64,000 bases of DNA from Escherichia phage EdH4, in sequence record MK327930.1; one strand, written 5' to 3'. Under the pieces are notes generated by a model. That model saw nothing but the letters and a program-made list of their open reading frames with translations. It was not told the origin of the DNA and made no database searches. Numbering within the stretch: the first letter of the stretch is position 1; every line of letters starts with the position of its first letter. Made by a program: the position numbers and the translations under genes. This document shows, one piece after another, positions 9,803 through 41,658 of this stretch.

Positions 9803-10198
9803 TCAATAAGTTTTTAGTACTTTCCCGTCCAATCTGTCAAGCTGGATCTCGATAGCTGCAGAAAACCTATTGTAAACCACATCGCCCAGGGAGTCCAGCC
9901 AATCTATGACGTTATATACCTGCTCTTTATTCTTGCAAGTCCGGATCCGTTTCATTACGTAAGACGGATCAATATTAGCGCTCTCGTTGTTGTGGTCCTG
10001 CGCCTGGCCTGCTGCGCTAGTTATAGATTTTACAACCACCTGAAAGGGCTTTAAGGTGCCTTTTGCGTTCATCTCACGCGCTTTTGCGGCGCGGTTGTTA
10101 TATGTTACACAACGGCGGCAAATGTTGACCAAATGCATATCAATAATTTTTTCATCGTTTGCCAGTTCGTTCATGATGCGGCGTACGTTCTTATTCAT
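9803..10198 (-). CDS. Hypothetical protein
   Basis: 131-aa ORF. Confidence 0.6.
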   Translation of the reverse strand: MNKNVRRIMNELANDEKIIDMHLVNICRRCVTYNNRAAKAREMNAKGTLKPFQVVVKSITSAAGQAQDHNNESANIDPSYVMKRIRTCKNKEQVYNVIDWLDSLGDVVYNRFSAAIEIQLDRLDGKVLKTY

Positions 10199-10246
10199 GA
10201 TCTTTTTCCTTTGTGCTGGCGGGAAACATTCCCGCCTTTTGTGTCT

Positions 10247-10274
10247 AGTTTACTTAAATTTTGCAGCGTGTCAA
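10247..10274 (-). promoter_or_regulatory. Sigma70-like promoter TTGACA-N16-TAAACT followed by 5' hairpin
   Basis: Hairpin ggcgggaaacattcccgcc at about 10219-10237. Confidence 0.55.
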
Positions 10275-10280
10275 TGATTT

Positions 10281-10679
10281 TTATTCGTGGGCGCATGTTA
10301 CAATGTGTTTTTTATAGCCCAGGTGGTCAGCAAGTGCCGACAAAAACTCTTCTTCGTAGATCCAGCCGTCGGCAGTGATCCCCATAGCATTTAATGCGCT
10401 CTCAAGTGCTGCGTTAGCTTTATCGTAACCGTGACCGCTCGCCTTGCCGCCAGTATAACCGTACTTATTGTTCTTGTTGTCGTGAATCCAAAACACGCAG
10501 TAGTGAGTGTTCCCGCTGGCGGCGGCATAATACCGGATCTCAGCTACTTCGTGCAAATTATTGTCATCGTCCAGGCCCACCAGATTATAAGCCTTGTAAA
10601 ATCCACGATCACGGCGGCAGTTCTTGACATCAGAAAAAGAAAAGTCTGCATTATCAAAATTAAAGGTAGTGGTTTTCAT
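10281..10679 (-). CDS. Hypothetical protein
   Basis: 132-aa ORF. Confidence 0.6.
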   Translation of the reverse strand: MKTTTFNFDNADFSFSDVKNCRRDRGFYKAYNLVGLDDDNNLHEVAEIRYYAAASGNTHYCVFWIHDNKNNKYGYTGGKASGHGYDKANAALESALNAMGITADGWIYEEEFLSALADHLGYKKHIVTCAHE

Positions 10680-10711
10680 GATTTTATCCTCTTAGTGTCT
10701 TTTGTGCTTTT

Positions 10712-10740
10712 AGTGTATTTGGTGTCGGACTGTATGTCAA
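10712..10740 (-). promoter_or_regulatory. Sigma70-like promoter TTGACA-N17-TACACT
   Basis: Upstream of CDS 10281..10679. Confidence 0.45.
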
Positions 10741-10743
10741 TAC

Positions 10744-11019
10744 TTATTTTTTATTAAACCAGTGGTTGATCTGACCTTTTGTCAGGGCGCAACGATTAAG
10801 CTGTTGCAGGGTATAGCTATGACCGCGACGAAATTTATAAAGGCCTTGCCCGTTGTTGATGGTTACATCCACCCGGCAAATCACTTGATTGGTGACCACC
10901 TGGCGAGTGTTGCGACGTACTTTGATCCCGTATGCGTTCATAAATTTATCCTCTTTACTGGTTAGTGCGGTGTTGTTCACCTTGTAGGGTAATAATACCA
11001 TGATTAACCTTGTTGTCAA
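10744..11019 (-). CDS. Hypothetical protein
   Basis: 91-aa ORF. Confidence 0.55.
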   Translation of the reverse strand: MTTRLIMVLLPYKVNNTALTSKEDKFMNAYGIKVRRNTRQVVTNQVICRVDVTINNGQGLYKFRRGHSYTLQQLNRCALTKGQINHWFNKK

Positions 11020-11022
11020 CGA

Positions 11023-11196
11023 CTATTTTAAATTATTTTTATGATAGAATCCACCTGCCGCCCCCCGCCAGGTTAACCACCATTTTTCGTACTCTTCTTT
11101 ATGTTCCAACGCTCCCGCCATAGCCTTTTCAACCAGGGCGATAGCCTCAGAGTCATTAATAGCTACATTTTCCAGGGGGATCATATTACCTTTCAT
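11023..11196 (-). CDS. Hypothetical 57-aa protein (below ORF-track cutoff)
   Basis: RBS gaggagg then ATG; MKGNMIPLENVAINDSEAIALVEKAMAGALEHKEEYEKWW... Confidence 0.45.
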   Translation of the reverse strand: MKGNMIPLENVAINDSEAIALVEKAMAGALEHKEEYEKWWLTWRGAAGGFYHKNNLK

Positions 11197-33891: not shown

Positions 33892-33914
33892 GAAAATCCC
33901 CGCCGAAGCGGGGG
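33892..33914 (-). terminator. Rho-independent terminator
   Basis: Hairpin ccccgccgaagcggggg plus T-run on minus; the same hairpin type recurs at 60333. Confidence 0.6.
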
Positions 33915-33926
33915 AGGTCTTAGAAA

Positions 33927-34307
33927 TTAATCGTAGTGTGCCAAAATCTCTCCATCGTTGCAAGTTCCCTCTACAAAGTTATGAAGATTCATGCACTCAT
34001 CTTGATAGAAGAATTTACCGCTTTTCAGCCGTAGGCCAAACAACTCCGCATCTCCACGATGGCAAGCCTCTACAAGTTCATAGATTTCATACGGCAACTC
34101 TCCGTCGTCATGGAAGAATCCAGCCTTATCGTTGACATAAATGAAGAAATAATCACTGCTATCGCAAGCGTCCAATATTTTAAACCAGACTTCATCTACA
34201 TCTTTTTCTCGGATATCGATCACGCAAGTGGAGCTGCATTCGTACTCCTTCTCCGGCTCCTCGGTCAATACCACCAGGTAGTTTCCCCGCTTACCTACTT
34301 TAGCCAT
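33927..34307 (-). CDS. Hypothetical acidic protein
   Basis: 126-aa ORF. Confidence 0.55.
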   Translation of the reverse strand: MAKVGKRGNYLVVLTEEPEKEYECSSTCVIDIREKDVDEVWFKILDACDSSDYFFIYVNDKAGFFHDDGELPYEIYELVEACHRGDAELFGLRLKSGKFFYQDECMNLHNFVEGTCNDGEILAHYD

Positions 34308-34318
34308 ACAACCCCCCC

Positions 34319-35503
34319 TTAAGCTTTAGCCAAAATGGCGCTAAACTCTTCACCAAACTCTTTTACAATCTTCATCAGGTTTGGGTATGCTTTGATCAGC
34401 TGAGCAACAATCTTGTCACGCCCTTTACCGATAAGCAAGGCATTTCCTAAGGCATTAGGTTTCATCATCGCCATAAAGACTGAGAATACAAAATCTCGGT
34501 TCTCGTCCTTGAAGTTTTCCCAAAGGAAATCGAGGAAGTTTGCCACGCAGCTGACAAGATCTTCGTCTGAGATACTTGCATTTTCCATCATATTGCGAAT
34601 AGCGATACAACCTTCAGATCCAAGAATCCACAAAATGTCTGGCTGCTTAGGACCTACGTATTCTTTGCAGCCACCTGCCATAATCCGACCGATTTCCGGT
34701 AAATTACGTTTCTTGGTGTGGTAAGTCCAGATCTCTACCGCTGCAGTGTGACCAATAGCACCTTGTAGAAGAACACGGGCCATAGCGTCAGAAATAATAC
34801 CGCTGTCAAAATCGTGCAAGATGTCAGATGCAGCAACCCAAGATCGTGGTGTGGCAAAAGATGGACAATTAATCTCAGCCATAGCCTCATAATTATCAAT
34901 AGCTGATGGAACTCTTTTCAGATACCCAATTACAGAGGAGTGAACCCCGTTGAGGAATGCGTAGTCCTCAATAAACACCTCTGCATTGCTTGTAACCTCT
35001 ACAATGATAAAACGGTTAGCCAGAGGGGCTTCGAGCGCCGAAAGAACCGCACCATCTGTAGAACGGTTACCCGCAGCCACAAAAACAGAACCCTTAGGGA
35101 ATGCATAGGTGCCGCACTTGTGGTCAAGCATAATTTGCATTGCAACCTTTTGCAGGTAGTTATCTGCATGAGTGAGCTCATCCAGAAAGATAATTCCGCT
35201 CCAGTCAGGATCCGCAGGCCAAAATTCTGGAATTGCAAACACTGTACGTGTAGTTCCATCCGCTTCTACAGGGATAGGTAGCCCAGATAAGTCGGCAGGA
35301 TCTTTATCTGACAGTCGCACGTCAACAAGGTTGTCATCTCGCTCACCGAACATATTATCAGCGATCTGCTTCATCACCTGGCTTTTACCCACACCCATTG
35401 GTCCCAAAATTAGGACAGATCGGCTATGACGTTGGGCAAACTGAATAATAGCTGGCAACTCACGGACAGTGATTTGACCACTTTCGAATACGTTTCTTGA
35501 CAT
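34319..35503 (-). CDS. MoxR-like AAA+ ATPase
   Basis: Walker A GPMGVGKS; Walker B IIFLDELTHA. Confidence 0.75.
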   Translation of the reverse strand: MSRNVFESGQITVRELPAIIQFAQRHSRSVLILGPMGVGKSQVMKQIADNMFGERDDNLVDVRLSDKDPADLSGLPIPVEADGTTRTVFAIPEFWPADPDWSGIIFLDELTHADNYLQKVAMQIMLDHKCGTYAFPKGSVFVAAGNRSTDGAVLSALEAPLANRFIIVEVTSNAEVFIEDYAFLNGVHSSVIGYLKRVPSAIDNYEAMAEINCPSFATPRSWVAASDILHDFDSGIISDAMARVLLQGAIGHTAAVEIWTYHTKKRNLPEIGRIMAGGCKEYVGPKQPDILWILGSEGCIAIRNMMENASISDEDLVSCVANFLDFLWENFKDENRDFVFSVFMAMMKPNALGNALLIGKGRDKIVAQLIKAYPNLMKIVKEFGEEFSAILAKA

Positions 35504-35772
35504 TAGTAAAAGTCCTCTACTTGTGTGTAAGTGTTTTCAAAGTTTTCCAAAACAGATATCACATCGAATCTGTCAATATCATACGTGACTCTCCAGTTGT
35601 ACGCAACCCTTTCTGCTGTTGCCTCTTCTGGCGCTAGTCGTCTGCTGGCATAAAAGAGTGTTGGAGTACACTTTCTTGCTTGCCCTCTAACTTTCCCATA
35701 ATAATATCTGTGAATATCTTTGTCAAAATTTAACTCTTTTTCTGCACGAAGTTCATATTGCTGGTATAACAT
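35503..35772 (-). CDS. Hypothetical protein
   Basis: 89-aa ORF. Confidence 0.5.
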   Translation of the reverse strand: MLYQQYELRAEKELNFDKDIHRYYYGKVRGQARKCTPTLFYASRRLAPEEATAERVAYNWRVTYDIDRFDVISVLENFENTYTQVEDFY

Positions 35773-35816
35773 CTCTACTACTCCTTAAGCGGCATCCTTG
35801 CCGCCATTCCTGCCCA

Positions 35817-36197
35817 CTAAAATGCAGTCCGAATCCAGACAAGGTTCTTATCTGCCCAATCATAGAGGCAAGTCATTGCACTATTGAATTGCTCACACGG
35901 AGGATAATCTTCTTCCATCTGGCGCATAGCAGAGCCTTGTGGGTAAAGCTCCCGTGCTGCAAACCACGCATCGTAGTCATCCACGGTATCGAAGTAGTAT
36001 ACAACATCCTCCAACTCAGGATCGAACTTTGAACTATCAGGATCCAGTTGTTCAGGGAACTTGGAGCGTAACTTGCCAGCCACAATACTTGCCAACTCGC
36101 TAACATGCTTATTGTCCCACTCCACTAGCTTCCCGTCTTCAGTGATGCGTCCTAACCACTGATCATGAAGGTCAACTGTTGTCTTCCACTGAGCCAT
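35817..36197 (-). CDS. Hypothetical protein
   Basis: 126-aa ORF. Confidence 0.55.
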   Translation of the reverse strand: MAQWKTTVDLHDQWLGRITEDGKLVEWDNKHVSELASIVAGKLRSKFPEQLDPDSSKFDPELEDVVYYFDTVDDYDAWFAARELYPQGSAMRQMEEDYPPCEQFNSAMTCLYDWADKNLVWIRTAF

Positions 36198-36199
36198 TA

Positions 36200-36457
36200 T
36201 CAGTCCACCTCTTCTTCTCGTTGTAGTTCAAGATACCCGTAGGTCTGGACATCTTGAAGGGTGTGGAACTCCCCCTCTGCCGCTAAGGCACGAACAACTT
36301 GGCACAAAACCTTATGAGGAACTTCATCCAAACCTAGATTCAGTGCAGGAAACACCTTATCTAAGTCAACAAAATAAACGAACTGTAGCTCACCAGCTTC
36401 AAAAGGTGTATCTTCAATAAACATCTTCTCGGCATTAGTCAAGATCTGCACTTTCAT
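36200..36457 (-). CDS. Hypothetical protein
   Basis: 85-aa ORF. Confidence 0.5.
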   Translation of the reverse strand: MKVQILTNAEKMFIEDTPFEAGELQFVYFVDLDKVFPALNLGLDEVPHKVLCQVVRALAAEGEFHTLQDVQTYGYLELQREEEVD

Positions 36458-36813
36458 TATTCTACCTCCTCTTCTTTTTCTTCGGCATTAGTTTCATGGC
36501 TACTCCACTCGGGAGTTTCCACCTCGATAGTAAACTCACGCACTACACGGTAATTGCCCATGAAGCGCTCTACTTCGTCAAGGCTTATGGAGAGGCCATT
36601 GGCAACCAGGTCTGCAGCACCCTCTTCTACCAGGTAGTCCAGATTGGCTTCCAGAGCCTCAGGTTCAAACCCTGTCAATGCAATAAGATAACCTTCCCCT
36701 TCATCAGGGAGGACAATACAGCCCAATTGATTTTCTTTAAAAAGGCAGTGACCATCATTATTGATTGGGTGTTCATTGCAGTAAATAGCTGCACGATAAG
36801 TAACTTTAGACAT
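36457..36813 (-). CDS. Hypothetical acidic protein (start trimmed to MSKVTYRA...)
   Basis: RBS TAAGGAGA 8 nt before the ATG; the track's first 7 codons translate the RBS. Confidence 0.55.
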   Translation of the reverse strand: MSKVTYRAAIYCNEHPINNDGHCLFKENQLGCIVLPDEGEGYLIALTGFEPEALEANLDYLVEEGAADLVANGLSISLDEVERFMGNYRVVREFTIEVETPEWSSHETNAEEKEEEVE

Positions 36814-36819
36814 CGGTAA
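36790..36819 (-). repeat. 29-bp inverted repeat, copy 1 (covers start codon and first 7 codons)
   Basis: taccgatgtctaaagttacttatcgtgca; exact copy on the plus strand at 38651-38680. Confidence 0.8.
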
Positions 36820-36826
36820 GGTCTCC

Positions 36827-37105
36827 TTAGGCAATTGTCATTTTACATTCTTGAAATTTTAACACAAGACGGTGATTGTGTCTAGTGTCTAAAAATATTT
36901 TTTCAACCATCAGGCACACGGTATAACCGTCCATCTTGTTGACAACAAAATCTCCAGGATGAGGGAGGATGTCTCCCGGATTGGGGAAACATAGTCCACT
37001 CAGAAAGGCATCGTCAGTGGTGGACTTAATAGATTTCCACACACTGTCTGCCTGAACATGTTCACCGACGTAATATACATTACCACACGCCTTCATCATA
37101 GTCAA
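36827..37105 (-). CDS. Hypothetical protein
   Basis: 92-aa ORF. Confidence 0.5.
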   Translation of the reverse strand: MTMMKACGNVYYVGEHVQADSVWKSIKSTTDDAFLSGLCFPNPGDILPHPGDFVVNKMDGYTVCLMVEKIFLDTRHNHRLVLKFQECKMTIA

Positions 37106-38001
37106 ACCCTCGCATAAATTAAACTTGTATCAGTATACTTCTTTAATGGGTAAATATCCTGTCCATAGATGCAATCATTAAACACCTCATCTACCCAAAG
37201 GCTACACTTATATCCCATCATTTCTAAAACACCCATCTCTTCTTCGGTAAACTTATCACCGCTCTTGCAAGATGTCAATACCTCATTCTGAACTCTTGCT
37301 ACCTCGAAGCGGTTATTGGCAATATCGCTATTGGCGATCAAATACTCACCTAGAGGGTGTGCGGCATTAAAGATGCACAGTGGACGGCTGACGTAATAGT
37401 CTCCAGGTGTATAAAAATTGTTGAGGTCTTTCACTAGAACATTCTTATCAGTCACTTCATTTATAACATCATGCATATCGCACATCTTTATATGTTTGAG
37501 GATTCCATCCCCCATCACAAAATAAAAACTTGCTGAGACACTTTCGGCATAGATCCTACTAGATCCGTTGTAGTTGTATTTTACTCGGATGCTAACGGGG
37601 GTTTTTCCTGTCGCGTTAGCCATCATCCAAAGAAATGGCAGCTCATACTTCTCCTCTGAGGAAACAAAAGGTGAGGTAGCCAGAGATCGAAAACCTCCAG
37701 AGAAGTTGAAAGTTACAGAACCGCTCCGGCGGTATGATACCGCGTATTCTACTTTTATATCGACATACCCATTGGAATAGGTGTGTCCTTCATTATCTAA
37801 ATATGTCCACTTATCAGACCCAGATACCAATCTACGCTCAATAACCTTCATCACTATAGGAATTAATGGGTTGGTACAAACCGCTTTTGAAGTAGCTTTA
37901 TCATCTAAAGCCTCGTAAATTGCAGAAAGGATGTCCCCAGCTGAAAGATTGGTTGTTATGTCCTGTTTCCACCGCGTACTAAAACTGTTAAGATTTGCCA
38001 T
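37102..38001 (-). CDS. Hypothetical protein
   Basis: 299-aa ORF, first gene of the minus-strand operon. Confidence 0.6.
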   Translation of the reverse strand: MANLNSFSTRWKQDITTNLSAGDILSAIYEALDDKATSKAVCTNPLIPIVMKVIERRLVSGSDKWTYLDNEGHTYSNGYVDIKVEYAVSYRRSGSVTFNFSGGFRSLATSPFVSSEEKYELPFLWMMANATGKTPVSIRVKYNYNGSSRIYAESVSASFYFVMGDGILKHIKMCDMHDVINEVTDKNVLVKDLNNFYTPGDYYVSRPLCIFNAAHPLGEYLIANSDIANNRFEVARVQNEVLTSCKSGDKFTEEEMGVLEMMGYKCSLWVDEVFNDCIYGQDIYPLKKYTDTSLIYARV

Positions 38002-38083
38002 AAGTAAGTGCTCCTATGTTAGTTTTCTTTCGAATGGGTGCACTATATTGTGGAGTTAGAGTAAAGTCAACACGTTTTTGATG

Positions 38084-38112
38084 TTGACATCTGTTGAGAC
38101 AATTGATACGAT
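38084..38112 (+). promoter_or_regulatory. Sigma70-like promoter TTGACA-N17-TACGAT for the plus-strand cluster
   Basis: The track's TTG/ATG start at 38078 lies inside this promoter. Confidence 0.5.
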
Positions 38113-38143
38113 TTCTTCACTTACAGAGCACGAGAGACGACTC

Positions 38144-39121
38144 ATGAATCTTGAAAAATATTATACACCAGAAGAGTTAGAGCGCTTGCTCAAAAAATAT
38201 AGACGCAAACAGAATAACGCACGGAAACGAGATATAGAGTTCGACCTGTCATGGGAAGAATACCTCCTATTTGGTAAAAAACTTTTAGGAGATGGAGTAT
38301 GCGACTATACCCTTATACCTTTTGACATGCACACAGATGAAAACGGGCTGGGGAATCCTTTCTACCCATCTCTGGAGCGGATAGATGATGAAGGTCCTTA
38401 TGCGGTTGATAACTGTTGTGTGGTGGGATTGAGATGCAACTCTCTAAAGGACTGTCTGGTAGATAAAAAGACTGCAGTCTTGATTAAAGACGAAACTGAT
38501 CGAAAAATTGTCCAGCAGATGATGCTCCACCTGAGCGAAGAGCGTATGGAGAAATTGAAAGGTGATTATACTTTTGAAGATTTCATCTTGCAATATGGAA
38601 CGGAAGAGGATAAACTAGCACTCTTTGACGAAGAAGAGGAGGAAGATATGCTACCGATGTCTAAAGTTACTTATCGTGCACCCAAGAAGCACATTTCCGA
38701 CATTGTAAACGAGCCTATCACAGAAGAGATTGAAGAAATGACGCAACAGGTGCATGAAGAGGAAAAAGAGACTCAGGAGGTCGAAGAGGAGCTTACAGAA
38801 GAGGTTCCTCCACTACCTGATGATGTTGAGATTGCCAAAGCTTACACTTTCTATTGTCAAACGTTCTACGATGTAGGTATGAAAGTTGATCTGTCGTTCA
38901 GCCAATTTAAGAGTTCGTATATTCGCAAATGCTGTGCTTTAACTGGTGAACGTCTTGGAGCTGGACTTAAACCCCTGTTGGTGACCGACTGGAATAAAGG
39001 TTTCACTAAAGGAAACTTTATGGTAGTATCTCCAATTATGGAGAAAGCTATGACAGATCTTATGAAGACCACCCGCATGACAATGACCGAGTTGGCAGGT
39101 ATTTTCAAACACGTTAAATAA
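38144..39121 (+). CDS. Hypothetical protein with Cys-rich N-terminal half and acidic C-terminal half
   Basis: Start trimmed to the ATG downstream of the promoter; contains in-frame copy 2 of the 29-bp repeat. Confidence 0.55.
   Translation: MNLEKYYTPEELERLLKKYRRKQNNARKRDIEFDLSWEEYLLFGKKLLGDGVCDYTLIPFDMHTDENGLGNPFYPSLERIDDEGPYAVDNCCVVGLRCNSLKDCLVDKKTAVLIKDETDRKIVQQMMLHLSEERMEKLKGDYTFEDFILQYGTEEDKLALFDEEEEEDMLPMSKVTYRAPKKHISDIVNEPITEEIEEMTQQVHEEEKETQEVEEELTEEVPPLPDDVEIAKAYTFYCQTFYDVGMKVDLSFSQFKSSYIRKCCALTGERLGAGLKPLLVTDWNKGFTKGNFMVVSPIMEKAMTDLMKTTRMTMTELAGIFKHVK
38651..38680 (+). repeat. 29-bp inverted repeat, copy 2 (in-frame LPMSKVTYRA inside CDS 38144..39121)
   Basis: Exact match to the reverse complement of 36790-36819. 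Confidence 0.8.
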
Positions 39122-39154
39122 TGACAGGGGCCAATGGCCCATTCTGGAGTTTTA

Positions 39155-40615
39155 ATGGATAGCAGAAGTTCAGAAATCATTGCCTCACAGAAAGATGATG
39201 CCCTGAGAATGTTGCAGGCTGCACGTATGTATCTCCTTGAAAAGCTGCCGTTTTATGGCACACTACTGTCAGGGTTGCAGTTCGTAGAAAACCACACATG
39301 GTGCTCCACCATGGCAACCGACCATAAACGCATCTACTACAGCCCTGAGTTCATTATGGGGTTGGCGGATGAGCGTAAAACCATTCTTAAAGCATCTCTG
39401 ACTGACAAGCAGTTTGAGATGGCTGAGGTTTTCTATTCCCCAAAATCTGTGAAAGAGGTGGCCTTTCTTCTGTCACATGAGGTGGGGCATATTATCTGTG
39501 ATCATCTGGTCCGTGGTAAAAGCTTTGAGCCGGAACTGTTCAATATTGCTTGTGATCACGTTATCAACACAGGTCTTGTGGTTGACTTTAGCAAGCCTCC
39601 TTGTGTTTTCTTCCCAAAGGGGAAAAGCACTGAGTTCGTAAAAGGTAAGCCTTTTGGCTTCTTAGCTAGTTGCTACTGCGACATGAAGTTTCATGGATGG
39701 ATTGCTGAGAACGTCTATGCAGTTCTTGATAAGCAAAGAGATCAGAATAACGGTAAAAGTAAGAGCGGCAAAGGTGAGAATTCTCAAGGAGATAAGCGAC
39801 AAACCGATGATCACATGAGCGGCAACGGTGGCACCAGCGATGATCTTGGAAAGGCTATGGGGTATGATCAGCCACAACCTGTAATCAGCCAATCTGATAA
39901 AGATCAGGCCATGCAGGACTCTGGTGATATGCTGGAGGCAGCAATGCAAGCGTCCGGAGGCCGTTGCCCTGAGGCGGTGCGTGAGTTTGTCAAGAACAGA
40001 GGTAAGCCTGTAATCAACTATATAGACATCATTAAGCAACGTATGTTGTCTAAAAGAAAGGCCGAACTGACCTACAGAAAACCTGGTCGCCGATCTGGGT
40101 CTTTGACCAGCACAATGCGAAAAGTTGGGGCTATAAACAAGAACCAGCACGTTATTGTTCCTGGTCGTAATCCGGAAAACACTATAGATATTGTGGTGGC
40201 TTTAGACGTTTCTGGCTCGATCTCTCAAAGAACTTTAAAGAAAATGTTCAATGAAATCACCGGATTGTGCAATCTGTATAAAGAGTTTAAGGTTACAATG
40301 TTCTGTTGGTCAACTGAGGTTGGAGAGGTTAAAGTATACACTCGCGGCAACATAGACGAGATGGTCAACTATGAGGTCCACTCAACATGGGGCACAACAG
40401 CTGCTTGCGTGTTCGAGTATCTGGATGCCAACATACCTAATGCAAAAGATGTCATCGTCCTGACCGACCTATACTTTGAGCATAACTTTGAACAAAAGGT
40501 TGTTGACAACAAGTGGAAAAAGTACGATACTCTATGGGTCCTCACTGAGGGGTATAATAAAAATTATATCCCGAGCTTTGGGAAAACTGTGGAATTAATC
40601 GAGTACGCTAAGTAA
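39155..40615 (+). CDS. Zinc metallopeptidase-like plus von Willebrand factor A domain protein
   Basis: HExxH in LLSHEVGHIICDH; VWA MIDAS motif VVALDVSGS; start trimmed to the ATG with a GGAG RBS. Confidence 0.7.
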   Translation: MDSRSSEIIASQKDDALRMLQAARMYLLEKLPFYGTLLSGLQFVENHTWCSTMATDHKRIYYSPEFIMGLADERKTILKASLTDKQFEMAEVFYSPKSVKEVAFLLSHEVGHIICDHLVRGKSFEPELFNIACDHVINTGLVVDFSKPPCVFFPKGKSTEFVKGKPFGFLASCYCDMKFHGWIAENVYAVLDKQRDQNNGKSKSGKGENSQGDKRQTDDHMSGNGGTSDDLGKAMGYDQPQPVISQSDKDQAMQDSGDMLEAAMQASGGRCPEAVREFVKNRGKPVINYIDIIKQRMLSKRKAELTYRKPGRRSGSLTSTMRKVGAINKNQHVIVPGRNPENTIDIVVALDVSGSISQRTLKKMFNEITGLCNLYKEFKVTMFCWSTEVGEVKVYTRGNIDEMVNYEVHSTWGTTAACVFEYLDANIPNAKDVIVLTDLYFEHNFEQKVVDNKWKKYDTLWVLTEGYNKNYIPSFGKTVELIEYAK

Positions 40616-40630
40616 GAGAGGAGGTTATTT

Positions 40631-40894
40631 ATGGCAACAGAGTTAAAATTTGCATCAAACCGTAAAACTAAGAAGTATCTGTCCTCAGTAGCTCCAGGCA
40701 CTGTGGTGATGTTTGTTGATGAACTTGGGGATGTGAATACAGCACTTGTTGTAAAATCACATCCTGCAAACATATATGTTGGGGTATTTGACCTGTTCAG
40801 AAAGGTGTTTGTAGAACTGCCTCACAGTTTGGTTGTTACAGAAATGGATGCCTGCATAGAAATTCTTGGCGAAGTTATGGTGGAGGAACAATAA
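40631..40894 (+). CDS. Small protein, tandem paralogue family 3 (member 1 of 4)
   Basis: 87 aa; shares the pattern K..F..G.VV...D...V.K.....VF.L..........VTE.D..I.ILGE with the next three genes. Confidence 0.6.
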   Translation: MATELKFASNRKTKKYLSSVAPGTVVMFVDELGDVNTALVVKSHPANIYVGVFDLFRKVFVELPHSLVVTEMDACIEILGEVMVEEQ

Positions 40895-41157
40895 TGGCTA
40901 CCAGCATTGTATTCAATTCTAAGGTGAAGAACAAAAAGCGTGCAGACAGTTTTCCGTGTGGGACCGTGGTAAGTTGCGACGGAGACGGCATTCAAAACAT
41001 AGTTATGATTGTCAAAACAGGAGAACATTGTGTGTGGGGGTTCGATTTAGAAAATAATGAGTTGTACGATCTGCCGCCAAACATGAAAGTTACAGAGCTT
41101 GACACCAAAATTACCATCCTTGGAGAGACAAGCTATTCAAAAGAAGGAGGAGAATAA
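40894..41157 (+). CDS. Small protein, tandem paralogue family 3 (member 2)
   Basis: 87 aa; TAATG overlap with the previous gene. Confidence 0.6.
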   Translation: MATSIVFNSKVKNKKRADSFPCGTVVSCDGDGIQNIVMIVKTGEHCVWGFDLENNELYDLPPNMKVTELDTKITILGETSYSKEGGE

Positions 41158-41420
41158 TGACCACAAAAATCACTATCGCAGAACCGAAAGCTAACACTCA
41201 GCCTATCGAAAAGTTTAAGTGCGGTGAGGTGGTAACATTCACACCAGATAATGAAGATGCTAAGATTTTCGCAATGGTCACAGCTGAGTGGATGTGTGAC
41301 AACACCACACAGGTTCTGCGTTTTGACACCTACCTTACAGATGAAATCAGGAACGATAAGATCGTGACTGGTGTAGATACTGAAATTATTTTCTACAAGA
41401 GCTTTTTAGAGGGTTTCTAA
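41157..41420 (+). CDS. Small protein, tandem paralogue family 3 (member 3)
   Basis: 87 aa; TAATG overlap with the previous gene. Confidence 0.6.
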   Translation: MTTKITIAEPKANTQPIEKFKCGEVVTFTPDNEDAKIFAMVTAEWMCDNTTQVLRFDTYLTDEIRNDKIVTGVDTEIIFYKSFLEGF

Positions 41421-41421
41421 T

Positions 41422-41658
41422 ATGGCGAAAATTCGTAAATTATCCAACAATCAGGTTGTTAAAGATTTTGAACCCGGGGAGATTCTGTATGTTCGTGATG
41501 CAGATGACGAAGGAGAAGATCTTGTTATGCTGCTAGGACACGCTGCTGAGGACGGATGCATCCAGGCTGTTTTTCTTGAAACAGCTATGGTGCACTGGAT
41601 AGAGCTGGACATGAAAGCACGAAAACCTAAAGCAGAAATCCTGATTTACGAAGATTAA
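41422..41658 (+). CDS. Small protein, tandem paralogue family 3 (member 4, divergent)
   Basis: 78 aa; conserved FEPGEILYV...VFLETAMVHWIELD. Confidence 0.55.
   Translation: MAKIRKLSNNQVVKDFEPGEILYVRDADDEGEDLVMLLGHAAEDGCIQAVFLETAMVHWIELDMKARKPKAEILIYED

What the first reader, a model, noticed from the sequence alone, without database searches (positions are those of the whole stretch)
34319..40615. MoxR-like AAA+ ATPase and metallopeptidase-VWA protein encoded on opposite strands
MoxR-type ATPases (GPMGVGKS, IIFLDELTHA) normally work with a VWA-domain partner. Here the VWA protein (HEVGHIICDH plus DxSGS MIDAS) is 3.6 kb away and transcribed divergently. Together they could form a chaperone or protease-like remodelling machine. 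The split arrangement is unusual compared with the usual operon pairing.
Basis: partly seen in the sequence, partly recalled or inferred. Interest (0 to 1): 0.5.

Follow-up and report, generated by a model that had tools for sequence, protein, structure and literature searches.

The report
Split phage MoxR ATPase–VWA peptidase pair
Two genes of an rV5-like E. coli phage, a MoxR-type motor ATPase and a zinc-peptidase/VWA adaptor, are the split-up version of a two-gene module (phage N4 gp24/gp25) that sits side by side in most other phages and bacteria; they almost certainly still work together, but nobody knows on what.

Summary
ORF 34319-35503(-) encodes a divergent MoxR-class AAA+ ATPase. ORF 39134-40615(+) encodes a DUF2201 protein: a zincin HExxH domain, a disordered linker and a VWA domain with a full MIDAS. 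They lie 3.6 kb apart, transcribed away from one back-to-back promoter gap (38002-38143).

The window is a Vequintavirus (99% identical to phage Murica), and GenBank already calls these genes 'MoxR ATPase' and 'putative metallopeptidase'. They are homologues of coliphage N4 gp24/gp25, two of the 14 N4-like core genes.

The ATPase sits directly upstream of the DUF2201 gene in:
- 70 of 72 testable viral loci;
- about 73 of 74 bacterial loci;
- N4, Aeromonas phages and Certrevirus CR9.

The divergent split is confined to a Vequintavirinae subclade (rV5, PVP-SE1, Hena1, KNP2). One inversion with a breakpoint between the two genes explains it. Starting from the DUF2201 gene, 85 of 86 testable loci have the ATPase within 10 kb, and the one exception keeps it elsewhere on the same contig. 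A second clade separated the genes independently.

The functional pairing is therefore well supported, and 'unusual split' is partly right. The substrate and biological role remain unknown. This is a known kind of system, already annotated and of moderate interest.

The parts
34319..35503 (-). MoxR-class AAA+ ATPase, 394 aa (rV5 gp004-type; homologue of N4 gp24). Walker A at 35381-35404, Walker B at 35165-35194.
   Evidence: ORF. phrog_1297 'ATPase' at 2e-110. Invariant Walker A/B, N146, R164 and R220. AlphaFold2 model has pLDDT 82.9; top Foldseek matches are NorQ 3.5e-8 and CbbQ 1.3e-7. The profile hits midasin at 3.8e-10. tblastn to the N4 gp24 region gives 2.9e-26. Annotated 'MoxR ATPase' in rV5, LL12 and PVP-SE1.
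39134..40615 (+). DUF2201 protein, 493 aa as the longest ORF; the probable real start is 39155 (486 aa). Homologue of N4 gp25. Layout: zincin-like N-domain (about aa 1-205), disordered acidic/Gly-rich linker (about aa 209-235), helical region, VWA domain (about aa 340-493).
   Evidence: Pfam PF13203 at 2.5e-28 plus PF09967 at 3e-11. Model pLDDT is 79.4, with pLDDT below 50 at residues 209-235. tblastn to N4 gp25 gives 1e-13 to 5e-19. The PHROG and RefSeq label 'HNH endonuclease' is a mis-annotation.
39476..39505 (+). HEVGHIICDH: the zincin HExxH motif (H115, E116, H119) plus invariant H124. The third metal ligand is H124 or D141.
   Evidence: Translation; invariance. The N-domain profile matches the solved minimal zincin MJ1213 at E 4e-4 across the edge strand and HExxH helix, and BepA/HtpX (M48) at about 0.06.
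40151..40612 (+). VWA domain with a complete MIDAS: D358-x-S360-G-S362 (40205-40219), T421 and D445.
38002..38143 (.). Divergent intergenic region with back-to-back sigma70-like promoters. Leftward: -35 TTGACT (38070-38065) and -10 TATAGT (38047-38042). Rightward: -35 TTGACA (38084-38089) and -10 TACGAT (38107-38112, with TG). The two -35 boxes form an inverted repeat.
   Evidence: GC skew flips at 38000. The PVP-SE1 record annotates a promoter at the equivalent position. Caveat: promoter-like sites in the region as a whole are not enriched over shuffles (20 against 14.7 +/- 4.5).
35503..38001 (-). Six small or unknown ORFs between the promoter and the ATPase, forming the leftward transcription unit. 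The ATPase is gene 7 of 8.
   Evidence: Only o126 (35817-36197) has a homologue in PVP-SE1. None is shared with CR9.
38078..39121 (+). Srd/Srh-like 'anti-sigma factor' ORF (annotated start 38144). It is the first gene of the rightward unit, directly upstream of the DUF2201 gene.
   Evidence: phrog_3118 at 1.5e-112, phrog_4592 'decoy of host sigma70' at 5.8e-15, phrog_1400 'Srd anti-sigma' at 3.7e-10. Conserved upstream of DUF2201 in PVP-SE1, Hena1 and L100.
33898..33913 (-). Intrinsic terminator-like hairpin (CCCCGC-TTCG-GCGGGG followed by a T-run) that ends the leftward unit after ORF 33927-34307.

Best explanation
The two genes encode the two subunits of one MoxR-VWA remodelling machine, the N4 gp24/gp25-type module. 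Inferred mechanism, by analogy with NorQ/NorD and CbbQ/CbbO: the ATPase forms a hexameric ring and the VWA domain of the DUF2201 protein docks on it. The MIDAS metal captures an acidic residue of a target protein. ATP hydrolysis pulls on the disordered linker and so repositions or activates the N-terminal zincin domain, which then cleaves the bound target or otherwise acts on it through its metal site. The machine would act in the early-to-middle phase of infection, alongside transcription-takeover and DNA-metabolism genes. The opposite-strand layout is a historical accident. In the ancestor of Vequintavirus, Seunavirus, Henunavirus and the KNP2-like phages, one inversion of the segment [bidirectional promoter ... 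HD-phosphohydrolase ... ATPase] had a breakpoint between the ATPase and DUF2201 genes. It put the two genes on either side of the same promoter gap, which plausibly preserves co-expression. What is shown: domain identities, catalytic-residue conservation, near-universal co-occurrence and adjacency elsewhere, the clade distribution of the split, and synteny markers. What is inferred: physical interaction, protease activity, timing, target and co-regulation.
For: 1. Identity of the parts. The ATPase fold is closest to NorQ and CbbQ, both MoxR ATPases with VWA partners. The DSSP string of the model shows a beta-hairpin after helix 2 (res 75-90), short strands before sensor 1, and R164 just before strand 5. 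Kaur et al. describe this arginine-finger position for MoxR (PMC7159879). DUF2201 has the NorD-like layout of N-domain, disordered linker and VWA with MIDAS (NorD layout from PMC9976466).
2. Linkage from the ATPase side. In 70 of 80 IMG/VR loci with ATPase relatives, DUF2201 lies directly downstream on the same strand (median gap 72 nt). Eight of the other ten end less than 110 nt after the ATPase.
3. Linkage from the DUF2201 side. 85 of 86 testable viral loci have the ATPase within 10 kb. The exception, L100, has an intact ATPase elsewhere on the same 136-kb contig (L186).
4. Named examples of adjacency: N4 gp24/gp25, Certrevirus CR9 with a 66-bp gap, Aeromonas phage 4L372XY with a 64-bp gap, Sulfurivermis, and about 73 of 74 testable gammaproteobacterial loci.
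5. Retention after the split. 114 of 121 Vequintavirus-like records hold at least 80% of the 7-kb block. 117 records carry the ATPase and 118 the DUF2201 protein at 95% identity or more. 19 of 20 Vequintavirinae-type metagenomic loci are divergent with gaps of 3.4-5.1 kb.
6. Inversion model. The CR9 gp122 HD-hydrolase homologue lies upstream of and co-directional with the ATPase in CR9, Hena1 and PVP-SE1. The CR9 gp139 homologue lies downstream of and co-directional with DUF2201 in CR9 and PVP-SE1.
7. Timing and context. N4 gp24/gp25 are middle genes and 2 of 14 N4-like core genes (PMC4193335). Recurrent neighbours are RNAP2, ThyX, 5'-3' exonuclease and dCTP deaminase.
8. Mechanistic template from the NorQD cryo-EM work: VWA finger in the pore, linker remodelling, MIDAS binding the target rather than the ATPase (PMC13036017 and PMC9976466).
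Against: There is no experimental evidence of interaction, ATPase activity or proteolysis for any member of this family. I found no functional paper on N4 gp24/gp25 or the rV5 genes. The window ATPase fails every Pfam AAA gathering threshold. The zincin assignment of the N-domain rests on Pfam plus a modest profile hit (E 4e-4); fold searches returned only VWA matches. I could not tell whether the DUF2201 VWA has the 'finger' that NorD inserts into the NorQ pore. The genes tolerate separation: 1.4-8.5 kb on the same strand in one clade, and at least 36 kb in the L100/L186 lineage. So tight translational coupling is not needed, and independent roles are not excluded. The promoter calls are consensus matches that are not enriched over shuffles. 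The inversion scenario is the most parsimonious reading of three markers, not a reconstruction.
Confidence: 0.7

Rival explanations
1. Metal-insertase or chelatase-like chaperone, not a protease. As with NorQ/NorD (Fe into NO reductase), CobS/CobT or BchI/BchD, the pair would load or exchange a metal cofactor in a phage or host enzyme, for example one in nucleotide metabolism. The HExxH site would hold the metal for delivery and would not hydrolyse peptide bonds.
For: The nearest solved relatives of the ATPase are NorQ and CbbQ, and BchD and NorD VWA domains are among the VWA matches. NorQD is a metal-insertion machine (PMC13036017). Neighbours are often nucleotide-metabolism enzymes. In Sulfurivermis a ferrochelatase gene lies two genes downstream.
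Against: The glutamate of HExxH (E116), the general base of zincin hydrolysis, is invariant across phage and bacterial members. The best N-domain matches are real peptidases: MJ1213, BepA and HtpX. NCBIfam gives no CobS, CobT or chelatase hit. No candidate metalloenzyme client is consistently linked.
Confidence: 0.15
2. The two proteins now act independently in rV5-like phages. After the inversion the ATPase serves another partner or client, while the DUF2201 protein is a stand-alone protease or adhesin-like factor, perhaps working with the adjacent anti-sigma-like protein.
For: The genes are in different transcription units. DUF2201 has acquired a conserved new upstream neighbour, the Srd-like ORF, in all split lineages. 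Separation of at least 36 kb is tolerated in one lineage.
Against: Both genes are retained with all catalytic residues in every split lineage examined, and no genome was found with only one of them. Identity to the window falls in step for the two proteins: PVP-SE1 50% and 45%, Hena1-type 43% and 44%, CR9 35% and 35%, N4 27% and 22%.
Confidence: 0.1
3. Virion or tail assembly chaperone, like the MoxR-type/VWA pair of the archaeal virus ATV that Kaur et al. cite as a 'phage-tail assembly system'.
For: There is a precedent for a viral MoxR-VWA pair involved in virion morphogenesis (cited in PMC7159879).
Against: In the window the genes lie among rIIA/rIIB, a Dda-like helicase and an anti-sigma-like gene. 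In N4 they lie among middle genes next to dCTP deaminase. In other phages they lie next to RNAP2, ThyX and an exonuclease. None of these is a structural module. The pair also occurs in bacterial chromosomes with no phage context.
Confidence: 0.05

Closest known systems
Coliphage N4 gp24 / gp25 (core genes of N4-like phages, Schitoviridae)
   Same: Homologous proteins: tblastn of the window proteins against the N4 locus gives 2.9e-26 and 5.2e-19 (N4 gp25 is also hit at 1e-13). The domain content is the same (AAA+ ATPase; DUF2201_N plus DUF2201). Both sit in early/middle, non-structural regions near rIIA-like genes.
   Different: In N4 the genes are adjacent and co-directional (167-bp gap). Here they are divergent and 3.6 kb apart. 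Identity is only 22-27%. The rV5-type ATPase has about 35 extra C-terminal residues, and the rV5-type zincin domain has an insertion of about 35-40 residues before the HExxH helix. The function of N4 gp24/gp25 is itself unknown.
NorQ/NorD and CbbQ/CbbO (MoxR AAA+ ATPase with a VWA partner; CbbQ/NorQ subfamily)
   Same: These are the best structural matches for the ATPase, and NorD VWA is among the top matches for the VWA domain. The partner has the same architecture: N-terminal domain, disordered linker and C-terminal VWA with MIDAS. In relatives the two genes form an operon.
   Different: The N-terminal domain of the partner is a zincin HExxH domain, not the NorD or CbbO N-domain. The client is unknown. 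Sequence identity is 16-22%. The presence of the pore-inserting VWA finger was not established.
Bacterial DUF2201 ('predicted metal-dependent peptidase' / 'vWA domain-containing protein') with an upstream AAA_5 ATPase
   Same: Same two Pfam domains, same invariant HExxH...H...D and MIDAS residues, and the same ATPase-then-DUF2201 gene order.
   Different: The sulfur-oxidiser clade surveyed carries a third gene of about 380 aa directly downstream (47 loci). That gene is absent from all phage loci and from the window. The bacterial proteins are shorter (about 415 aa).
FtsH-type AAA+ zinc proteases
   Same: Conceptually, an AAA+ motor combined with an HExxH zinc peptidase.
   Different: FtsH is a single polypeptide with a classical-clade AAA module and an M41 peptidase, and it has no VWA domain. 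Here the motor is MoxR-class and the peptidase sits on a separate VWA adaptor. This is an analogy only, with no detected homology beyond the AAA+ and zincin superfamilies.

Membership tests
MoxR-class AAA+ ATPase | Walker A, Walker B, sensor 1, arginine finger just N-terminal to core strand 5, sensor 2 | tested here: met
   G34-S41 (GPMGVGKS), D108/E109, N146, R164 (immediately before strand 165-170) and R220 are invariant in 24 sequences. They sit at the expected places in the model. The arginine-finger position is as Kaur et al. describe for MoxR (PMC7159879).
MoxR-class AAA+ ATPase | Helix-2 insert (clade 7 feature; contacts the VWA finger in NorQ) | tested here: met
   The model has a beta-hairpin at 75-81/84-90 between helix 69-73 and the Walker B strand 102-108. 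This comes from a predicted model only (pLDDT 70-83 in that stretch).
MoxR-class AAA+ ATPase | Scores above the curated threshold for Pfam AAA_3 (PF07726) or AAA_5 (PF07728) | tested here: not met
   For the window protein AAA_5 scores 16.7 bits against a cut-off of 22, and there is no AAA_3 hit. None of the 16 Vequintavirinae-type members match. All 8 members of the 360-aa clade do (best 2.4e-9 and 3.1e-8), and 3 of them also match bpMoxR. These members are linked to the window protein at E about 1e-44.
MoxR-class AAA+ ATPase | Closest solved structures are MoxR proteins | tested here: met
   Foldseek ranks 1-15 are NorQ and CbbQ (3.5e-8 to 7e-7, TM about 0.65 on the target). CHU_0153 (2r44) and cso-CbbQ also appear in the list. 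The profile hits the midasin AAA domains at 3.8e-10.
MoxR-class AAA+ ATPase | Gene adjacent to a VWA-domain partner gene | tested here: not met
   In the window the partner is 3.6 kb away on the other strand. The feature is met in most relatives.
MoxR-class AAA+ ATPase | Hexamer formation and ATPase activity coupled to the VWA partner | not testable with these tools
   This needs biochemistry, or at least a multimer structure prediction, which was not available.
DUF2201 family (PF13203 + PF09967) | Both Pfam domains above the gathering score, in N-to-C order | tested here: met
   PF13203 scores 99.9 bits (cut-off 23.2) at residues 95-321. PF09967 scores 43.9 bits (cut-off 26.4) at residues 353-488.
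Zincin metallopeptidase (HExxH) | HExxH on an active-site helix preceded by an edge strand, with a third metal ligand | tested here: inconclusive
   HExxH, H124 and D141 are invariant, and the HExxH lies in helix 106-125. The profile aligns strand plus helix to the solved zincin MJ1213 at E 4e-4, and to BepA and HtpX at about 0.06. No fold-level match to a peptidase was recovered because VWA hits dominate. The third ligand is not assigned and catalysis is untested.
VWA domain with MIDAS | Rossmann-like VWA fold with DxSxS...T...D | tested here: met
MoxR-partner VWA (NorD/CbbO/ViaA type) | Finger-like extension of the VWA that inserts into the MoxR pore | tested here: inconclusive
   The feature is described in PMC9976466 and PMC13036017. 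NorD VWA is a top Foldseek match, but I could not inspect coordinates to see whether an equivalent protrusion exists. The conserved basic segment Y314-x-x-x-x-R319-R320 before the VWA is one candidate contact.
N4 gp24/gp25 module | Homology of both proteins to N4 gp24 and gp25 | tested here: met
   tblastn of the window proteins against the N4 locus gives 2.9e-26 for the ATPase (gp24 region, 3975-4976 of L089) and 5.2e-19 for DUF2201 (gp25 region).
HNH endonuclease (label of phrog_1314 and several RefSeq records) | HNH/His-Me finger domain | tested here: not met
   There is no HNH Pfam hit; only DUF2201_N and DUF2201 match. The label is a propagated mis-annotation.
Known anti-phage defence systems (PADLOC) | Significant match to a defence-system model | tested here: not met
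   Only P-loop-level hits for the ATPase at E of 0.003 or worse, and none for DUF2201.

The most novel reading that the evidence does not exclude
The gp24/gp25-type pair is a two-piece, ATP-dependent, substrate-selective protease. A MoxR motor drives a VWA-tethered zincin, which diverse lytic phages (N4-like, rV5-like, jumbo and Aeromonas phages) use early or mid-infection to cleave or dismantle a specific conserved host protein complex. In the rV5 lineage it has been re-wired to be co-transcribed with an anti-sigma-like factor, which would point to the host transcription machinery as the target. This would be a new class of AAA+ protease architecture and a new host-takeover mechanism.
Probability: 0.15. 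Interest if true: 0.75.

Novelty: new member of a known kind. Interest (0 to 1): 0.35.

Why it matters
The module is widespread and conserved. It is one of only 14 core gene pairs of N4-like phages, it is fixed in all rV5-like phages (many of which are therapy candidates), and it occurs in jumbo phages and in bacterial chromosomes. Even so, I found no functional study of it. Three things are useful here:
- The rV5 genes are placed in the N4 gp24/gp25 family.
- The common 'HNH endonuclease' label is shown to be wrong.
- The pair survives inversion and even long-range separation, which makes a focused case that the two proteins depend on each other.

The work also gives a testable mechanistic template from NorQ/NorD. 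It does not reveal a new kind of system.

Tried and rejected
1. Active DNA inversion at the 29-nt perfect inverted repeat that brackets the promoter (36790-36818 / 38652-38680). A chimeric junction query found 0 of 118 records with the inverted configuration. The repeat is absent from PVP-SE1 and CR9. Rejected as a switch.
2. A natural ATPase-DUF2201 gene fusion in a Nitrosomonadales MAG (L263). The junction is a run of N ('XXXX'). Artefact.
3. A conserved third partner in phages. Clustering of neighbours in 40 dereplicated groups gave no family in more than 13 groups. The recurrent unknowns have no informative PHROG. The bacterial third gene is absent from phages.
4. Single-sequence searches of both proteins against PDB sequences gave only P-loop-level hits or nothing.
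6. Functional or expression data. CRISPRi-ART (its SUSP1 phage has only 138 CDS and neither MoxR nor rV5 is mentioned), phage Tn-seq, PA5oct RNA-seq and searches on DUF2201, Vequintavirus plus MoxR, and rV5 transcriptomes gave nothing on these genes.
7. Defence-system (PADLOC) and CobS/CobT-type (NCBIfam) assignments: no hits.
8. The search for related loci with the full DUF2201 alignment failed for lack of a conserved stretch. Solved with sub-alignments.

Full report
**What is in the window.**
The 64-kb window is a Vequintavirus (rV5-like myophage of E. coli). The 7-kb block 34000-41000 is 99.3% identical to Escherichia phage Murica, and 121 phage records match it at 90% identity or more. The four quoted motifs translate exactly at 35381-35404, 35165-35194, 39476-39505 and 40205-40219. 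Public records already label these genes 'MoxR ATPase' and 'putative metallopeptidase' or 'VWA-like domain containing protein'. Some RefSeq and PHROG labels call the second gene 'HNH endonuclease', which Pfam does not support. The DUF2201 CDS probably starts at 39155 (M8), not 39134.

**The ATPase.**
- On its own the protein misses every Pfam AAA gathering score (AAA_5 16.7 bits against 22). Against PDB sequences only its P-loop aligns.
- A database search gave about 45 close, roughly 400-aa relatives from large phage contigs. It also gave thousands of 360-aa relatives at about 35% identity (E about 1e-44) that carry AAA_3, AAA_5 and sometimes bpMoxR domains.
- In a 24-sequence alignment the Walker A residues G37/G39/K40/S41, Walker B D108/E109, N146, R147, R164 and R220 are invariant.
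- An AlphaFold2 model (pLDDT 82.9) shows a beta-hairpin inserted after helix 2, short strands before sensor 1, and R164 immediately before core strand 5. Kaur et al. give this arginine-finger position for MoxR (PMC7159879).
- Foldseek ranks NorQ and CbbQ first (3.5e-8 to 1.3e-7, TM about 0.65 on the target). The alignment profile hits midasin AAA domains at 3.8e-10.
- I conclude that it is a divergent MoxR-class ATPase of the NorQ/CbbQ type.

**The DUF2201 protein.**
- Pfam gives DUF2201_N ('putative metallopeptidase domain', 2.5e-28) and DUF2201 ('VWA-like', 3e-11).
- Across 26 phage and bacterial sequences H115-E116-x-x-H119, H124, R127 and D141 are invariant, as is the full MIDAS set D358-x-S360-G-S362, T421 and D445.
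- The model (pLDDT 79.4) has a helical N-domain, a disordered acidic/Gly-rich linker (residues 209-235, pLDDT below 50) and a C-terminal alpha/beta domain.
- Fold searches did not place the N-domain. A cut-out N-domain profile (A6) matches the solved minimal zincin MJ1213 at E 4e-4, across the edge strand and the HExxH helix. It also matches the M48 proteases BepA and HtpX at about 0.06.
- The N-domain / disordered linker / VWA layout is that of NorD (PMC9976466).

**Are the two genes a pair?**
- From the ATPase side: of 80 IMG/VR loci with ATPase relatives, 70 have a DUF2201 gene directly downstream on the same strand (median gap 72 nt). Eight of the other ten end within 110 nt of the ATPase. 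Only L026 and L073 lack a DUF2201 gene where there was room for one.
- From the DUF2201 side: 85 of 86 testable viral loci have the ATPase within 10 kb. The exception, L100, has an intact ATPase (59% identity) on the same 136-kb contig. It lies about 98 kb away, or about 36 kb if the genome is circularly permuted.
- The pair is adjacent in coliphage N4 as gp24/gp25, in Aeromonas phage 4L372XY, in Certrevirus CR9, in Sulfurivermis fontis, and in about 73 of 74 testable gammaproteobacterial loci.
- N4 gp24 and gp25 are two of the 14 core genes of N4-like phages and are middle genes (PMC4193335).
- No third gene is consistently linked in phages. A downstream gene of about 380 aa is confined to the bacterial clade.

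**Why the genes are on opposite strands here.**
- The divergent layout is not special to this phage. It is shared by Seunavirus PVP-SE1, Henunavirus Hena1, Klebsiella phage KNP2 (4.6 kb) and 19 of 20 Vequintavirinae-type metagenomic loci (gaps of 3.4-5.1 kb).
- Certrevirus CR9, in the same subfamily, keeps the genes adjacent.
- Two markers polarise the change. An HD-phosphohydrolase gene lies upstream of and co-directional with the ATPase in CR9, Hena1 and PVP-SE1. A CR9-gp139 homologue lies downstream of and co-directional with DUF2201 in CR9 and PVP-SE1.
- One inversion of the segment [bidirectional promoter ... HD ... ATPase], with a breakpoint between the ATPase and DUF2201, is enough to convert the CR9 order into the rV5 order. 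This is an inference. The window itself has lost the HD gene.
- In the window the only sizeable intergenic gap (38002-38143) carries back-to-back sigma70-like promoters whose -35 boxes form an inverted repeat. GC skew flips there. A strong terminator-like hairpin at 33898-33913 closes the leftward unit.
- Both genes are therefore within 4 kb of one control region, so co-expression is plausible but untested. The promoter scan is not enriched over shuffles, so these sites are only candidates.
- A different phage clade has the ATPase 1.4-8.5 kb upstream on the same strand (about 19 loci). The module has therefore been pulled apart more than once without losing either gene.

**Mechanism.**
I propose a NorQ/NorD-like machine.
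- The hexameric MoxR ring binds the VWA domain.
- The MIDAS engages an acidic residue of a client. In NorD the MIDAS binds the target, not the ATPase (PMC9976466).
- ATP-driven movement is transmitted through the linker. NorQ remodels the NorD linker (PMC13036017).

The difference here is that the effector end is a zincin domain with an invariant catalytic glutamate, so I favour regulated proteolysis of a bound client. Metal delivery is the main alternative. The genomic context suggests a role in host takeover or replication, not virion assembly. That context is rIIA/rIIB, a Dda-like helicase and an anti-sigma-like gene here, and RNAP2, ThyX, exonuclease and dCTP deaminase elsewhere. The client is unknown, and I found no experimental work on any member.

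**Verdict.**
The interpretation (a MoxR-VWA partnership) is well supported by comparative genomics, though not by experiment. The 'unusual split' is real, but it is a clade-wide, probably inversion-derived arrangement and not something new. The system is a new, already annotated member of a known kind. What is new here is the link to N4 gp24/gp25, the correction of the HNH label, and the evidence that the pair is retained through rearrangements.

Noticed in passing
window 36790-36818 and 38652-38680: A perfect 29-nt inverted repeat, with arms 1833 nt apart, brackets the divergent promoter gap. It reads in-frame as (P)MSKVTYRA in both places: at the annotated start of ORF 36457-36813(-) and internally in the anti-sigma-like ORF 38078-39121(+). 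No sequenced relative carries the inverted configuration (0 of 118), and the repeat is absent from PVP-SE1 and CR9. Its origin and purpose are unexplained. An internal translation start in the anti-sigma ORF is one possibility.
   Followed up: partly
window 40631-41658 (+): Four tandem small ORFs (87, 87, 87 and 78 aa) lie directly downstream of the DUF2201 gene. Their N-terminal regions look similar by eye, so they may be a paralogous gene array. The first matches phrog_10698, of unknown function. Paralogy was not tested by alignment.
   Followed up: no
phage database records, e.g. MG065635.1 'Campylobacter phage C12': Sixteen records named 'Campylobacter phage' (host given as C. jejuni) are about 99% identical to E. 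coli rV5-like phages over this 7-kb block. They are probably mislabelled or contaminant sequences.
   Followed up: no
window 38078-39121 (+): The 'anti-sigma factor' ORF matches PHROGs labelled HNH endonuclease, 'decoy of host sigma70' and 'Srd anti-sigma factor' but has no Pfam hit. It is the conserved first gene upstream of DUF2201 in every split lineage (PVP-SE1, Hena1, L100) and is absent from that position in CR9. The longest ORF starts at TTG 38078, inside the predicted rightward promoter. The annotated start is ATG 38144.
   Followed up: partly
L002 7297-8409; L263 6254-7420; 47 of the loci L217-L296: In sulfur-oxidising Gammaproteobacteria the ATPase-DUF2201 pair is followed by a conserved gene of about 380 aa with no Pfam domain, making a bacterial three-gene cluster. 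This gene is absent from all phage loci. In Sulfurivermis a ferrochelatase gene follows it.
   Followed up: partly
L073 (IMGVR_UViG_3300048042_000013), ATPase at 10001-11176: A full-length, rV5-type-length ATPase relative (28% identity, 413-aa ORF) has no DUF2201 gene within 10 kb on either side. This may be another split lineage, or a real loss of the partner. The rest of the 61-kb contig was not examined.
   Followed up: no
window 35503-35772 (-): The 89-aa ORF overlapping the ATPase start codon belongs to phrog_13164, which is labelled 'ATPase', and several records annotate it as a second 'ATPase'. It has no P-loop and is too small. The label probably spilled over from the neighbouring gene.
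   Followed up: no
window 37102-38001 (-): The 299-aa ORF next to the promoter is annotated 'putative alpha 1-3 fucosyltransferase' in many records. It has no Pfam hit, and its only PHROG match is a family of unknown function. The annotation looks unsupported.
   Followed up: no
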